Below, piece by piece: positions 1-55,982 of a stretch of 64,000 nucleotides of DNA (its first letter is position 1; every line of letters begins with the position of its first letter). A program made the translations under genes and the position numbers. This stretch comes from Eledone cirrhosa. Taxonomy: Eukaryota. Under the pieces are notes generated by a model. It made no database searches and had not been told where the DNA came from. It saw only the letters and a list, made by a program, of their open reading frames with translations. Where the stretch lies: contig OZ024756.1 of NCBI GenBank assembly GCA_964016885.1, positions 11,532,001 to 11,596,000 of the forward strand, in the 5' to 3' direction.

Positions 1-195
1 ATATTAAATGTTAAGTGTTAATTGAACAAGTACTTTTATGCTTTCGCAATCTTCAGGTTCAAATTGTGTGGTGACAGTCAAGTTTGCAATTTTCAACAGT
101 TGAAAATTGCAAACTTGACTGTCACGACATTATGAACCTGAAGATTGCAAAAGCATGAAAAGTACTTGTTCAATTAACACTTAACATTTAATATT
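1..195. mobile_element. Fold-back (palindromic) mini-element with mirror HHR-like motifs
   Basis: 1-97 is an imperfect reverse complement of 99-195, centred on 98; the left end may be cut by the window edge. Confidence 0.75.
133..172 (+). ncRNA. Hammerhead ribozyme-like motif (degenerate)
   Basis: TGAAC-CTGAAGA-TTGC aaaa GCAT-GAAA-AGTACT-T-GTTCA; the mirror copy on the minus strand has a GAAA tetraloop in stem II. The register at the cleavage site is imperfect. Confidence 0.55.
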
Positions 196-249
196 CTACC
201 ATACTATTTCATTCTAATACCATTATAAATTTTAAAGGATTGTAAATAA

Positions 250-355
250 ATGTTTTCTACTTTAGGCACAAGGGCCAGGCAATTACCAGTGCATTACAGG
301 TACTTTATTTTATCGACCCCGTAAGGATGGAAAGGCAAAGTCAACCTAGGCGGGA
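250..355 (-). mobile_element. SINE family 1, partial
   Basis: Matches the 3' half of the SINE at 61615-61803. Confidence 0.8.
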
Positions 356-1474
356 TAAATAAAACGAGTAAATCAGGCAAAGTTGGAATTCCTTTTATTA
401 ATATAATCTTCTATACACCATCATACATACCCATGTCTCTCTCTCTCATCTCTCTCTCTCTCTCTCTCTCTCTCTCTCTCTCTCTCTCTCTCTCTCTCTC
501 TCTCTCTCTCTCTATATATATATATATATTGAGAGAGTGAGGGATCATATGTAAATGAGATGACCTTTTCCCTCAACTTATCTGAGAGATCAGTACTTCT
601 GATTAGATTAAGTACTGACTTACAAACAACCCCTGCTTAGAGGGAGGCCCCCACCCCATCCCGGATGTTTAATGATGGTGATGATGATGTCTTTGTACAT
701 GACCTACATGTTTATTATGATACCTAAAATATGAAACAAAAACAATGTTCCTTGACCTACTGGAGAGACCCTACTGACAGAACCTGTTGGGGGTGGGGTT
801 TGATTCGGAACAAAGATGAGGGGGGGGGGTGCAGGAACATATTACTGATGTGTGTGGGACGAGGAGGGGTGGGGGGTGGGGTTTAACAGCACCAGATGTC
901 ACTACATAATAGAATAACCAGATAGAAATTAGATGGTTCCTTTCTAATATTTCCACCTGGCTCTTAGTCTCTCGCACGCACGCACGCACACACACACACA
1001 CACACACACACACACACACACACACACACACACACACCACACACACACACACACACACACACACACACACACACACACACACACACACACACACACTCTC
1101 TCTCTCTCTCTCTCTCTCTCTCTCTCTCTCTCTCTCTCCTCTCTCTCTCTCTCTCTCTTGTGTGTGTGGTGCACACACACACGGTATCAGTTTCCCTCTT
1201 GTTTATTTGTCCATACACACACATTCACTCTCACACACACTCTTGGTTTTTGTCTACACACACACACACACAATCACACACACACACACACTCTCTCTCT
1301 ATCTCTCGTGTGTGTGTGCACCACACACACACACGGTATCAGTTTCCTTCTTGTTTATTTGTCCATACACACACTCTTGGTTTTTGTCTGCACACACAAT
1401 CACACACACACCTCCCGTCCTCCCCTCATTCTCAAACACACACTCTTGGTTTTTCTCCACATATCACACACACA

Positions 1475-1915
1475 TCTACACATGTTCACTACACACACAC
1501 ATCTACACATGTTCACTACACACACACATCTACACATGTTCACTACACACACATCTACACATGTTCACTACACACACACATCTACACATGTTCACTACAC
1601 ACACACATCTACACATGTTCACTACACACACATAGACACATGTTCACTACACACACACACATCTACACATGTTCACTACACACACACACATAGACACATG
1701 TTCACTACACACACATCTACACATGTTCACTACACACACACACATAGACACATGTTCACTACACACACGCACATCTACACATGTTCACTACACACACACA
1801 TCTACACATGTTCACTACACACACAGACAAATGTTCACTACACACACACATCTACACATGTTCACTACACACACACACATAGACACATGTTCACTACACA
1901 CACACATCTACACAT
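1475..1915. repeat. CA-rich minisatellite (catctacacatgttcactacacac, about 25-29 bp)
   Basis: Direct tandem units visible. Confidence 0.9.
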
Positions 1916-1942
1916 CCTATATATACAAATATCCGAAAATAT

Positions 1943-2132
1943 AATTGTTTCTACTTTAGCACAAGGCCAGCAATTACCCAGTACATTACTGGTACTTTAT
2001 TTTATCGATTCCCGTAAGGATGAAAGGCAAAGTTAACCTCGGCGGGATTTGAACTCAGACCATAAAGGGCCGTAACTCTATGCTGCAAGGCATGGGTGTC
2101 TGACCCTCTACCGAAACTGCTAATCCACTGCA
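1943..2132 (-). mobile_element. tRNA-derived SINE family 1 (Nin/Inv-like central motif)
   Basis: Reverse strand shows an A-box-like head, B box GAGTTCAAATCC and GCCTTTCATCCTTACGGG..TCGATAAAATAAAGTACC; about 10 copies in the window. Confidence 0.85.
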
Positions 2133-2158
2133 AAGCCATGTGTGTATAACGCATTAGA

Positions 2159-2368
2159 GATGACTGAGGAAGGAAGGGGTGATGACAGACTGAGGAAGGA
2201 AGGGGTGATGATCAAACCGAGGAAGGAAGGGGTGATGACAAACGAGGAAAGGAAGGGGGTGATGACAGACTGAAGAAGGAAGGGGTGATGACAGACTGAG
2301 GAAGGAAGGGGTGATGACAGACTGAAGAAGGAAGGGGTGATGACAGACTGAAGAAGGGAGGATGACAA
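2159..2368. repeat. 26-bp minisatellite
   Basis: gatgacagactgaggaaggaaggggt, about 8 copies. Confidence 0.9.
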
Positions 2369-52787: not shown

Positions 52788-53800
52788 GTGACACACTGAA
52801 GTGACACTCAAATGATAGACTGAAGTGACACTCAAATGATATACTGAAGTGACACTGAAATGACACACTGAAGTGACATACTGAAGTGACACACTGAAGT
52901 GACACACTGAAGTGACACACTGAAGTGACACTCAAAATACACTGAAGTGACATACTGAAATGACACTGAAATGACATACTGAAGTGACATTGAAGTGACA
53001 CATTGTACTGAAGTGACACTGAAGTGACACTGAAATGACAACTGAAGTGGCACACTGAAATGTCACTGAAGTGACACTGAAATGACAACTGAAGTGGCAC
53101 ACTGAAATGTCACTGAAGTGACACTGAAGTGACACTGAAATGACAACTGAAGTGGCACACTGAAATGTCACTGAAGTGACACTGAAGTGACACTGAAATG
53201 ACAACTGAAGTGGCACACTGAAATGTCACTGAAGTGACACTGAAGTGACACTGAAGTGACACTGAAGTGACACTGAAATGACAACTGAAGTGGCACACTG
53301 AAATGTCACTGAAGTGACACTGAAGTGACACTAAAGTGACATACTGAAGTGACACACTGAAATGTCACTGAAGTGACACTGAAGTGACACTGAAGTGACA
53401 CTGAAGTGACACTGAAGTGACACTGAAGTGACACTAAAGTGACATACTGAAGTGACACACTGAAATGACACTGAAGTGACACTGAAGTGACACTGAAGTG
53501 ACACTGAAGTGACACTGAAGTGACACTGAAGTGACACTGTAATGACACTGTAATGACACTGAAGTGACACTGAAGTGACACACTGAAGTGACACACTGAA
53601 GTGACACACTGAAGTGACACTGAAATGTCACTGAAGTGACACTGAAGTGACACTGAAGTGACACTGAAATGACACTGAAGTGACACACTCAAATGACACA
53701 CTGAAATGACACTGAAATGACACACTGAAGTGACACACTGAAATGACACACTGAAGTGACACACTGAAATGACACACTGAAGTGACACTGCAGTGGCACA
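52788..53800. repeat. 11-13 bp minisatellite (ctgaagtgaca)
   Basis: Direct tandem units. Confidence 0.92.
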
Positions 53801-54461
53801 ACAGTTTCAAAACATCTCTTTTAGATAATAACAAAAAAAAGATGAAATGATAACCAAAGTTCCAATAACAAAACAATAAAAATATAACCAAACGCTGTGT
53901 GAAGTCCCCCCCCCCCCCCCGAATTTTCTAACTTAAATGCCAAGGAATCTCCCCCTCTCCCGCTCCCCCTCTCTTCTCACTACTACCACCTCTACTCCCT
54001 CTAAATCATAAAACTATTTCCACAGTTTATCCCTATTTTTTTCTTCTTCATGTCCAAGTAAACCTGACTTTTATTAGGGTCCCCATATAACAAAGTGTGG
54101 TAAGATACCAGGAGGACCATAACGCATCATAGTACTCAATACTTGGGGTAGTAGAGTGGGTAATATGAAAAGATTCATATCTAACTGGATCTAGCTGTCG
54201 AAACCACCGGAGCTCAGCTGTCGGGCTCCTGAATCTTCATATACATAAATTAACGATGTAGAAAGCTGAGAAAATAATTGCAATTGCTTATAAGATGGCT
54301 TATAAAAATGGGGTAAAGACCCCCCTAGAAACAGATGTTGTGGGTGGCTTGAGATATGGAGTTGTTTTTATAGGGGCCACTAGCATCATTTTCTGCCTCA
54401 GTCCAGCTGCTGATTTACACATCAAGCTGCATTTAGTGTAGTCTGATCAGGTTCCTTATGC

Positions 54462-54682
54462 TTAACCCTTTAGCATTTACATTAGTCTATACTTACTATT
54501 GTATTTTTGTGGTAAAGGTTTTTATTTTACATAATTATCTATCTAATATCAAATCTATGAGATTTTGATGTCATTTATTTTGAGAACAATACCTTAATAT
54601 AAGTATGAGCAGCCAGTTATGGCTGGTTTGAACAGGAGGAGGTGAGAGAGAGATATGGCCGGTTTAAATGCTAAAGGGTTAA
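54462..54682. mobile_element. piggyBac-type MITE
   Basis: TTAA-flanked CCCTTTAGCATTTA TIRs. Confidence 0.85.
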
Positions 54683-55279
54683 GCTGCTTCAATGTTTGTA
54701 TATCCCTTGGGAGTAATGTTATATCTACCCTTCAGTGATTTGTATAACATACTCTCTATATTTCTCTGAATGAGATCTTTTAACAGTCTCTTTTCATTGA
54801 GATGTTATGTATATCTGTGACAAATTTAATTATATATATATATATATATATATATATATATATATATATATAAATATTTATATATATTTATAGTTATATA
54901 TATTTATAGTTATATATATTTATAGTTATATATATAGTTATATATATATATAGTTATAAATATTTACTAGTTGTAACCCAACAATTTAAATATAACTTTC
55001 CATATATATATATATATATATATATATATATATATATATATATATATATATATATATGTAGGAGGTGAGTTTTATTGTAGTACAATAAAGCAATGCAGAT
55101 ATATTCCTCCCCCTCCACTTTTTACTCTCATCTCCTCCTCTTTTTCATCCTTTCCACCCCACCCCCCGCTCAAAAATCCCCCCCCCCCAATATCACACAT
55201 CAATCTAAAACTACTTTTCATATGTTAATTTAAAACTGCACTATCCACAAGTGTTTTTAACCTTCATATCATGTCCTCC

Positions 55280-55350
55280 TATTTTATCTGATGAAAACAC
55301 AAATGTTATTGCATGGTGATATTTGTTTTTGAAATGCGCATAATAAAATA
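55280..55350 (+). ncRNA. Type I hammerhead ribozyme, family A
   Basis: TATTTTAT-CTGATGA-AAACACAAATGTTATT gcat GGTGATATTTGTTTTT-GAAA-TGCGCA-TA-ATAAAATA. Confidence 0.85.
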
Positions 55351-55533
55351 TATGGAACTCATTTAACCATCTTTTGATCTTATATATTATATATTATATA
55401 TATATATAATTATATATATATAATTGGTGTTGGATGCTTAAAGCGTCCATATGCGGACTCAATGCTCTCATAGAGCAGAGTATGATTTCACAGAAAAAAA
55501 GAGAATCAGTGTTGCGACAAATGTAATTTATTG

Positions 55534-55629
55534 GACATATTACAATCGTTTCTCTGGCGACCAGCTCGAGGCGCGATCGATGTGATGATCGAACCTGACT
55601 CTGAAAGTCGCAAGGTTCTCAGATATGTC
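55534..55629 (-). ncRNA. Hammerhead motif with CTGAGAA core variant (element about 55422-55690, inverted arms about 55488-55528 and 55647-55688)
   Basis: GACATAT-CTGAGAA-CCTTGCGAC...GTCGCCAGA-GAAA-CGATTG-TA-ATATGTC; 7-bp stem I. Confidence 0.7.
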
Positions 55630-55937
55630 TTGATTCTACGAAGCAGAAATTCCATTCGTCGCAACACTGATTCTCTTTTTTTATGTGATATATATATATA
55701 TATATATATATATATAATTAAGTTAAAGATGTACATCCATATATGTATACTGAAATACTAGTATGTATATGAATACACACACGTATACATATGTAGGTGT
55801 ACCAAGTTTTTTCACTGGTCACTTTACTGTGAGTGGCCAGCTATTCTGTATGTAAACACACAGACAAACCGGTTTTTAGAGTCATACTGGTTTTTGAGGA
55901 AACACCTCTCCTCTATTCTCCAGAAAGCCAGACAAGG

Positions 55938-55982
55938 AATATTGAACTAGTTTCGTTGTTGTTACAACTCATCAGCAATATT
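55938..55982 (-). ncRNA. Canonical minimal type I hammerhead ribozyme
   Basis: AATATTG-CTGATGA-GTTGT aaca ACAAC-GAAA-CTAG-TT-CAATATT; all stems Watson-Crick. Confidence 0.88.

What the first reader, a model, noticed from the sequence alone, without database searches (positions are those of the whole stretch)
133..55982. Swarm of about 20 hammerhead ribozymes in ten or more distinct non-coding mini-element families
Seen: complete or near-complete type I HHR folds (stem I-CUGANGA-stem II-GAAA-stem III-UH-stem I') at 133, 4254, 4483, 4780, 5173, 5625, 6215, 11072, 11318, 12154, 21104, 21244, 25085, 25649, 32668, 42946, 46789, 51424, 55280, 55534 and 55938, roughly one per 3 kb, plus half motifs. 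They sit in 200-500 bp islands between microsatellites, and the families share little primary sequence. Established: Penelope-like elements and retrozymes carry type I HHRs with short palindromic stem III. Inference: a large, diverse radiation of non-autonomous ribozyme-bearing retroelements mobilised in trans. If the window is representative, a multi-Gb genome would hold 10^5 or more copies. No Penelope-type RT/GIY-YIG ORF is in the window.
Basis: partly seen in the sequence, partly recalled or inferred. Interest (0 to 1): 0.92.

Follow-up and report, generated by a model that had tools for sequence, protein, structure and literature searches.

The report
Penelope ribozyme ends and retrozyme arrays
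The hammerhead ribozyme sequences are real, but about half are cut-off ends of ordinary Penelope-like jumping genes; four are protein-free repeat elements (retrozymes) whose arrays carry the Penelope insertion signature, which points to the enzyme that spreads them.

Summary
All 21 listed sites hold a type I hammerhead core or a close variant. Eleven pass a strict descriptor (shuffles 0.01) and 16 a relaxed one (shuffles 0.63). The reading 'all non-autonomous mini-elements' is only partly right.

Nine sites are shown, and two inferred, to be 5'-truncated ends of autonomous Penelope-like elements (PLEs): Hydra-clade families with intact 755-821 aa ORFs elsewhere in the 3.0-Gb genome, and a Neptune/Nematis-type family. 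Four sites are non-coding tandem retrozymes (units 314, 467, 488 and about 1,300 nt). Six are unresolved.

Exact family patterns give 81,637 genome-wide matches, 72,714 of them Hydra-type. The window is about fivefold richer than average.

The best result lies outside the window. Retrozyme arrays reach 10 kb or more as two diverging arms in (TA)n. One arm ends at a short site and the other at a long site (21 of 22 pairs in K, E, G), exactly as in the coding PLEs. This supports PLE-driven, more-than-unit-length reverse transcription. Cleavage, expression and circularity were not tested. Known kind; moderately interesting.

The parts
133..172 (+). Family L hammerhead (one extra A in the GAAA box) in a palindromic two-arm insertion (1-245, continuing left of the window); parent unresolved
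4206..4673 (.). Family A two-arm insertion: 3' ends of an autonomous Hydra-clade PLE; hammerheads 4254-4325 (-) and 4483-4553 (+); long tail on the right arm
4728..4928 (-). Family B2 3' end (hammerhead 4780-4845) of a third Hydra-type PLE
   Evidence: 85% to the 3' end of L247
5017..5335 (-). Family D retrozyme, about one 314-nt non-coding unit; hammerhead 5171-5215 with U.U at the stem II base (family trait)
5382..5785 (-). Family C 3' end of a Neptune/Nematis-type PLE with inverted tail; hammerhead 5626-5667
   Evidence: 96% to L181 just downstream of a GIY-YIG ORF
5973..6415 (+). Family E retrozyme fragment of a non-coding unit of about 1.3 kb; hammerhead 6213-6290
10905..11420 (.). Family B two-arm insertion: 3' ends of an autonomous Hydra-clade PLE (755-aa frame); hammerheads 11072-11137 (-) and 11318-11383 (+)
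12076..12260 (+). Family B2 3' end; hammerhead 12154-12218
   Evidence: 91% to L247
21104..21140 (+). Minimal hammerhead core with stem II but no stem I partner; probably dead; parent unresolved
21244..21279 (-). Minimal hammerhead with 2-bp stem III; repeat family, parent unresolved
24699..25247 (+). Family G retrozyme, 1.1 units of a 488-nt non-coding unit; hammerhead 25084-25165
25580..25765 (+). B3 hammerhead end (25649-25713), 87-91% like the B and B2 ends; Hydra-type parent inferred, not seen
32668..32759 (-). Family H hammerhead, old family (about 80% between copies); parent unresolved
42943..42997 (-). Family I hammerhead with U4C core (CCGANGA); a family C-like tail lies next to it; parent unresolved
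46757..46934 (-). C-type end (hammerhead 46789-46832), 83-85% like L181; Neptune/Nematis-type parent inferred
51364..51617 (-). Family A 3' end (hammerhead 51424-51494) plus inverted tail arm
55028..55408 (+). Family A 3' end (hammerhead 55280-55350) plus inverted tail arm
55410..55690 (-). Family J end, hammerhead 55533-55630 with a G8A lesion; two-arm anatomy; no short tandem among 100 listed places; parent unresolved
55716..56060 (-). Family K retrozyme, 345 nt of the 467-nt unit; hammerhead 55938-55982

Best explanation
The window is a (TA)n-rich landing zone for Penelope-like elements and their parasites. Autonomous PLEs (Hydra-clade A, B, B2; Neptune/Nematis-type C) carry a type I hammerhead near their 3' end. 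Their protein cuts both strands of AT-rich DNA and starts reverse transcription at two fixed internal RNA sites, one per DNA end. This leaves two diverging, usually 5'-truncated arms, one with a short end and one with a long 'tail' end. Most motifs are such stubs. Families D, E, G and K are non-coding retrozymes: a tandem transcript is cut to unit length by the hammerhead (probably as a dimer, given the palindromic stem III) and circularised, then copied round and round by a PLE protein from the same kind of paired start sites, giving palindromic arrays of up to 30 or more units. SHOWN: motifs, parent ORFs, tandem non-coding units, two-arm anatomy, array-private variants. INFERRED from literature: two-strand cutting and two start sites. 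INFERRED: cleavage, circular RNA, and that a PLE protein acts in trans.
For: Parents: 8 of 8 fetched family A loci have an 821-908-residue open frame followed by the hammerhead; B has a 755-aa frame with hammerheads at both ends in L113 and L115; B2 in L247; C in L181 and L003 with Pfam GIY-YIG hits. Retrozymes: direct repeat at unit length in 20 of 25 D loci, 12 of 25 G loci and 5 of 25 E loci; K arrays of 11+11, 9+at least 21 and 7+13 units; longest ATG ORF 30-82 codons, no PLE protein match; K unit folds with z = -9.3. Anatomy: all 10 two-strand K loci among 28 loci (first 100 of 5,217 places) diverge, none converge. One short plus one long end in A 15 of 16, B 19 of 20, J 16 of 17, E 8 of 8, G 8 of 9, K 5 of 5. 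A 12-13 bp target duplication flanks one K insertion (L112, read by eye). All 18 full units of one K array, in both arms, share 7 differences from the reference unit; all 28 units read in another share one. PMC11167929 showed in vitro that a PLE protein cuts and extends both strands and starts at two internal sites that define the tail.
Against: No cleavage or expression data. PLE hammerheads are weak in vitro (PMC4209133), 8 of 9 Xenopus retrozyme dimers did not cleave (10.64898/2026.07.22.740005), and the hammerhead was dispensable for PLE insertion in vitro (PMC11167929). Family D fits the two-end rule poorly: 8 of 18 pairs clean, 1 long-long, 9 with an end at neither site. No retrozyme unit shows convincing homology to an autonomous parent (best: 33 bp at 85%, E 0.002, E against B), so the partner protein is not identified. 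In one E array the arms carry different variants and the left end is rearranged. A 1.7-kb host tandem containing a C-type hammerhead shows that arrays can also arise after insertion. Six sites have no identified parent.
Confidence: 0.78

Rival explanations
1. PLE machinery inserts the non-coding families, but from long uncleaved linear read-through transcripts of existing arrays. No circle is involved and the hammerhead is a passenger.
For: Arms run straight through the cleavage site; only 8 of 278 inner ends lie within -2..+4 of it, which fits circles and uncleaved RNA equally. The hammerhead was not needed in vitro (PMC11167929). An E arm alternating two variants 7% apart could be copied from a mixed source array.
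Against: 18 of 18 units identical for 7 private changes, and array-uniform periods of 465, 467 or 468 nt, are simpler from one circle copied many times. Strong self-pairing of the unit. Circles are shown for coral, mussel and axolotl retrozymes (PMC7229834).
Confidence: 0.15
2. A short PLE-type insertion comes first, and the tandem arrays grow later by unequal crossing-over or slippage (satellite birth), as discussed in 10.64898/2026.07.22.740005.
For: A 1.7-kb host tandem with a hammerhead exists. Period-3 and period-2 variant patterns in two arrays resemble higher-order repeats.
Against: Arrays consist of pure units, end at the two fixed sites in (TA)n, are dispersed (28 loci in 56 Mb of contig 1), and both arms of an inverted pair are expanded and often share private variants.
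Confidence: 0.1
3. One reading: essentially all motifs belong to independent non-autonomous mini-elements.
For: No PLE ORF in the window; four families are non-coding; six sites are unresolved and could be non-autonomous.
Against: Nine sites match the 3' ends of coding PLEs directly. Hydra-type ends outnumber the four retrozyme patterns 72,714 to 7,704.
Confidence: 0.03
4. The motifs are chance matches or hairpins of DNA transposons (MITE inverted repeats).
For: Opposite-strand pairs look like terminal inverted repeats.
Against: 11 against 0.01 in shuffles. Arms have variable inner ends and unequal outer ends. 84 of 91 contexts chosen on the 3' half alone also have the 5' core and paired stems, with several pair types.
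Confidence: 0.01

Closest known systems
Hydra-clade Penelope-like elements (PMC8557442; its File S1 lists Hydra-1_Obim from Octopus bimaculoides, 2,507 bp, no pLTR)
   Same: Single ORF with RT then C-terminal GIY-YIG-like domain; RWx, DKT, CxCx5C, CxxC and CxH motifs; canonical hammerhead; (TA)n targets.
   Different: Units are about 3.8 kb with a 1.1-1.4 kb 3' UTR and full pLTRs. Young intact copies and more than 72,000 hammerhead ends; the paper speaks of a small number of families outside cnidarians. Identity to Hydra-1_Obim was not tested.
Minimal hammerheads of metazoan PLEs (PMC4209133)
   Same: Thousands of dispersed motifs in many families, mostly truncated copies; opposite-strand pairs 100-700 bp apart; palindromic stem III; extra base after A9 (family C).
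   Different: Counts here are about tenfold above the 2,000-9,000 given there. G10.1-C11.1 is replaced by A-U (A, B), U.U (D, E, G) or C.A (J, I).
Metazoan non-LTR retrozymes (PMC7229834; PMC7761336; 10.64898/2026.07.22.740005)
   Same: Non-coding, low-GC (36-38%) tandem units with one type I hammerhead each; self-paired unit; co-occurrence with PLEs.
   Different: Family E unit (1,263-1,322 nt) exceeds the 51-972 bp range of the 2026 preprint. Arrays are head-to-head palindromes with PLE short/long ends, which the texts read do not describe. Expression and circularity are untested here.
Poseidon element of Anolis (PAc) in vitro (PMC11167929)
   Same: Two adjacent internal start sites bounding a tail downstream of the hammerhead; AT-rich targets; both strands used.
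   Different: Tails here are 30-107 nt against 30-40 nt; different clades; seen here also on non-coding units.

Membership tests
Type I hammerhead ribozyme | CUGANGA, GAAA and UH boxes in type I order with three helices | tested here: met
   11 strict, 16 relaxed of 21; five sites variant or damaged
Type I hammerhead ribozyme | Rfam hammerhead model at gathering score | tested here: not met
   0 hits; best HH9 37.7 bits against 52
Type I hammerhead ribozyme | Self-cleavage after H17 | not testable with these tools
   needs a transcription and cleavage assay
Hydra-clade PLE (families A, B) | RWx, DKT, CxCx5C linker, CxxC..E and CxH motifs, YxDD; C-terminal EN | tested here: met
   all found in A and B, criteria from PMC8557442 section 11; 17 of 25 homologues have DKT
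Hydra-clade PLE (families A, B) | Profile or structure match to RT and GIY-YIG | tested here: inconclusive
   No Pfam hit for A or B, no PDB sequence hit; 13 of 25 homologues carry PF26215; no structure model obtained
Hydra-clade PLE (families A, B) | Placement in the Hydra clade on an RT tree | not tested
   no reference set in hand
EN+ PLE (A, B, B2, C) | pLTR with hammerhead, partial tandems, inverted 5'-truncated copy, tail at one end, (TA)n targets | tested here: met
   family C tail not resolved
Neptune/Nematis-type PLE (family C) | C-terminal GIY-YIG with CX2-5CxxC linker and CCHH | tested here: inconclusive
   PF01541 hits and motifs visible in L003; only 3' fragments seen, clade not separated
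Non-LTR retrozyme (D, E, G, K) | Tandem or circularly permuted unit with one type I hammerhead per unit | tested here: met
Non-LTR retrozyme (D, E, G, K) | No coding capacity; low GC; self-paired unit | tested here: met
   (shuffle control run for K only)
Non-LTR retrozyme (D, E, G, K) | Unit size 150-450 bp (PMC7229834) or up to 972 bp (2026 preprint) | tested here: not met
   D, G, K fit the wider range; E is 1,263-1,322 nt, so E is filed as working like a retrozyme, oversize
Non-LTR retrozyme (D, E, G, K) | Expressed as circular RNA | not testable with these tools
   no RNA data obtained
MITE / DNA transposon | Fixed terminal inverted repeats of equal length | tested here: not met
   outer ends differ by the tail, inner ends scatter

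The most novel reading that the evidence does not exclude
Animal retrozyme arrays are each written in one event by a dimeric PLE protein. Each subunit holds its own RNA circle (monomeric or multimeric), starts at one of two fixed sites, and reverse-transcribes round the circle for up to 10 kb, giving giant palindromes. The paired start sites would be the missing cis-signal that assigns retrozymes to PLEs, and this genome holds both young circles (K, E) and intact candidate enzymes to show it.
Probability: 0.55. Interest if true: 0.72.

Novelty: new member of a known kind. Interest (0 to 1): 0.52.

Why it matters
Which retrotransposon moves animal retrozymes is stated as open in PMC7761336; the 2026 preprint supports PLEs only by co-occurrence and pLTR similarity. 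Insertion anatomy is a more direct line of evidence. Young retrozyme arrays with mapped start sites, next to intact PLE ORFs, make the question testable in the published in vitro assay. The result also shows a Hydra-clade expansion of more than 70,000 ends, and warns that such stubs and palindromes are easily mislabelled as SINEs, MITEs or satellites. The hammerhead swarm itself is an expected by-product of PLE activity.

Tried and rejected
Rfam: no hit at gathering score; weak hits were almost all microsatellite-like miRNA models. The repeat finder was swamped by microsatellites. My first label 'Nematis' for A and B was dropped after the Hydra criteria were met. An apparent chimera of a family A end with a Neptune-type ORF (L003) was rejected: it is a nested insertion, and that ORF has its own C-type hammerhead. 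A 1.7-kb tandem of the C-type motif is a host duplication, not a retrozyme. Fossil evidence of cleavage: no pile-up of inner ends at the cut site (8 of 278; J 3 of 19; the B total is inflated by subfamily boundaries). RNA: no RNA holder listed for K; this is no evidence either way. Contigs of four runs of unrecorded type (four coded organisms, four studies) carry K-like sequence. In X1 three loose ends run into (TA)n at 234 and 303 nt after the cut site, and X4 has a 497-nt contig (467+30). X1 may not be independent of the assembly, so this is not counted as support. A random genome sample for density and a structure model were not obtained, so the total above 81,637 is an extrapolation and the RT/EN fold is untested. 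PDB and Pfam searches were blank for A and B. Two look-ups of earlier findings returned nothing. PMC5785218 (hammerhead variants in PLEs) was not held, the supplement of PMC7229834 was unreadable and bioRxiv supplements are closed; these, Dfam and Repbase could already hold some families or the inverted arrays.

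
Full report
SETTING. The window lies at C17:11,532,001-11,596,000 of a 3.0-Gb animal assembly. It is AT-rich and about 40% tandem or simple repeat. The host is probably an octopod. This is inference from genome size and (TA)n load, plus the fact that the only named homologue of the PLE protein comes from Argonauta (37% identity); it was not tested.

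OBSERVATION. A strict type I descriptor finds 11 motifs, all at listed sites, against a mean of 0.01 in local dinucleotide shuffles. A relaxed descriptor gives 16 after dropping two hits whose stem II does not fold, again all listed, against 0.63. The other five are variant or damaged: 5625 (short stem I), 42946 (U4C core, shared with relatives), 55534 (G8A lesion), 133 (one extra A) and 21104 (no stem I partner). Rfam misses all at gathering score. No PLE coding remnant is in the window.

AUTONOMOUS PARENTS. Family A (4254, 4483, 51424, 55280): long copies run upstream through a 3' UTR of about 1.1 kb into an ORF. A protein search gave 38,195 candidates; of 150 scored all were 96-100% identical without stops in the match. 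Eight of 8 fetched loci, picked for long frames, have an 821-908-residue open frame followed by the hammerhead, and L040 has it at both ends. Family B (11072, 11318) has a 755-aa frame with hammerheads at both ends, 47-52% identical to A. B2 (4780, 12154) follows a broken B-like ORF in L247. A and B meet every sequence criterion given for the Hydra clade in PMC8557442; Pfam and PDB searches were blank and no tree was made. Family C (5625) is 96% identical to the sequence just behind a GIY-YIG ORF in L181. Sites 25649 and 46789 are close relatives of these ends, and their parents are inferred. So 9 sites are shown and 2 inferred to be stubs of coding PLEs.

NON-CODING FAMILIES. K (55938) is a 467-nt unit in arrays of 11+11, 9+at least 21 and 7+13 units. 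D (5173) repeats at 288-315 nt in 20 of 25 loci, G (25085) at 456-489 nt in 12 of 25, E (6215) at 1,281-1,298 nt in 5 of 25. E also forms arrays of 3+1 and 4+6 units. The window's G copy exceeds one unit and its D copy is about one unit. Longest ATG ORFs are 30-82 codons, GC is 36-38%, and no PLE protein matches. The K unit folds at z = -9.3 with its two ends closing stem I. These work like non-LTR retrozymes. Sites 133, 21104, 21244, 32668, 42946 and 55534 are repeat families without an identified parent.

NUMBERS. Exact patterns: Hydra-type 3' half 72,714 (control 4), K 5,217 (51), E 1,680 (86), J 1,055 (70), D 734 (71), one C subtype 164 (66), G 73 (87); sum 81,637. The last six controls were 0. 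In fetched DNA, 84 of 91 distinct contexts of the Hydra-type half are complete hammerheads (the sample leans to young copies). The 958 kb of fetched loci hold 43 sequence clusters of relaxed hits, some by chance. The window has 8 Hydra-type hits against 1.55 expected; scaling by that factor suggests 1-2 x 10^5 motifs in all, an extrapolation. Axolotl already has 120,000 retrozyme copies and a coral more than 6,000 hammerheads in 16 families (PMC7229834).

INSERTION ANATOMY. In every family tested, outer ends fall at two fixed distances behind the cut site, mostly running into (TA)n: A 51/134, B 57/143, J 56/134, E 56-64/132-139, G 87-96/203, D 139/168, K 228-235/303. In two-arm insertions one arm uses the short and the other the long end: A 15 of 16, B 19 of 20, J 16 of 17, E 8 of 8, G 8 of 9, K 5 of 5. 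For K+E+G the binomial p is 5e-7 on 21 of 21, after leaving out one G pair with an end at neither site and all of D. D gives 8 clean pairs of 18. A few pairs may be one locus seen twice. All 10 two-strand K loci among 28 diverge head-to-head. One K insertion has a 12-13 bp target duplication. In one K array all 18 full units of both arms share 7 differences from the reference unit; in another all 28 units read share one. Against a single template: one K array has a variant with period 3 in one arm only, and one E array alternates two variants in one arm and has a third in the other, with a rearranged left end. This fits two templates per event, sometimes multimeric, but also later reshuffling. 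Inner ends do not pile up at the cut site.

MECHANISM. PMC11167929 showed that a PLE protein, predicted to be a dimer, cuts and extends both strands of AT-rich DNA and starts at two internal RNA sites that define the genomic tail. Inverted copies with a tail on one side are known PLE hallmarks (PMC8557442, PMC3846280). The coding families here follow this. The non-coding families follow the same rule, so a PLE protein most likely inserts them; their long uniform arms are most simply explained by repeated copying of a circle made by hammerhead cleavage. Cleavage, circles and the partner enzyme are inferred. E and J have end spacing like A and B, which hints at Hydra partners, but homology is slight.

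KNOWN AND NEW. Known: PLE hammerheads as dispersed truncated copies and opposite-strand pairs (PMC4209133); retrozymes and their proposed PLE origin (PMC7229834, PMC7761336, 10.64898/2026.07.22.740005); Hydra-1_Obim in Octopus (File S1 of PMC8557442); 31 recently active Penelope-like families in O. vulgaris, with no mention of ribozymes (PMC13282606); 235 Hammerhead_1 hits in giant squid (PMC6962438); a natural U4C core in a viroid (PMC3088659). Not found in print by searches or by term searches in the retrozyme papers: palindromic retrozyme arrays with paired PLE ends, and a 1.3-kb unit. Unread supplements, PMC5785218 and repeat databases could hold them.

WHAT I READ. 10.64898/2026.07.22.740005: parts 1-3 of 5 (main text) plus a term search. 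PMC11167929: parts 1-2 of 4. PMC4209133: parts 1-2 of 4. PMC8557442: passages, section 11 and supplement rows. PMC13282606: part 1 of 3 plus passages. PMC7229834, PMC7761336, PMC3846280, PMC6962438, PMC3088659, PMC6765202: passages only. PMC5785218: title seen in reference lists only. Dimer cleavage through a palindromic stem III is taken from PMC4209133.

VERDICT. A real, dense field of hammerheads of known kinds, mostly PLE stubs, with four retrozyme families whose insertion anatomy ties them to PLE machinery. New member of a known kind; interest 0.52.

Noticed in passing
window 43241-45931 (+): 896-residue open frame of an RTE-like LINE with endonuclease, RT and a PHD-type finger; the stop-to-stop frame lacks the N-terminal start.
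   Followed up: partly
window 42943-42997 and L185, L042, L199, L126: A hammerhead family with a conserved U4C core (CCGANGA) and C.A or similar at the stem II base; activity unknown.
   Followed up: partly
L248+L249 (G000:C1:130,882,144-130,893,766): 11.6-kb family E palindrome; one arm alternates two unit variants about 7% apart, the other arm carries a third; one junction joins to the second base after the predicted cut site.
   Followed up: partly
L106-L107 (G000:C1:56,387,500-56,397,800): K array whose minus arm shows one variant with period 3, absent from the plus arm.
   Followed up: partly
window 48921-49250, 31460-31576, 60085-60207, 11834-11946, 26626-26715: Further palindromic islands of 90-330 bp without a hammerhead core; could be other two-arm insertions or MITEs.
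   Followed up: no
window 1937-2131 and nine other places (2476, 10308, 25391, 31806, 42238, 50739, 56988, 61616, part at 244): A 190-bp SINE-like repeat in ten copies; a second family at 22748-23073, 35748-36081, 61066-61391 and others.
   Followed up: no
window 46215-46568 / 46958-47311: 354-bp inverted repeat at 99% flanking the 46789 hammerhead.
   Followed up: no
window 16295-18011, 33905-34894, 39022-40190, 51970-52555: Young minisatellites with 71, 72, 91 and 26 bp units (95-98% matches).
   Followed up: no
L246 (G000:C5:8,767,500-8,775,500): 1.7-kb host tandem duplication containing a C-type hammerhead, a family E piece and a SINE-like repeat.
   Followed up: yes
L009, L031, L106, L108 and others: At least a dozen further recurring hammerhead families not in the window, some with stem II over 100 nt.
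   Followed up: no
L040 positions about 600-680 of the ORF: Family A carries an Asn-rich insert between RT and endonuclease that family B lacks, as reported for rotifer PLEs in PMC3846280.
   Followed up: no
L142 (family D flank): 266-residue frame resembling a Tc1/mariner transposase (by eye).
   Followed up: no
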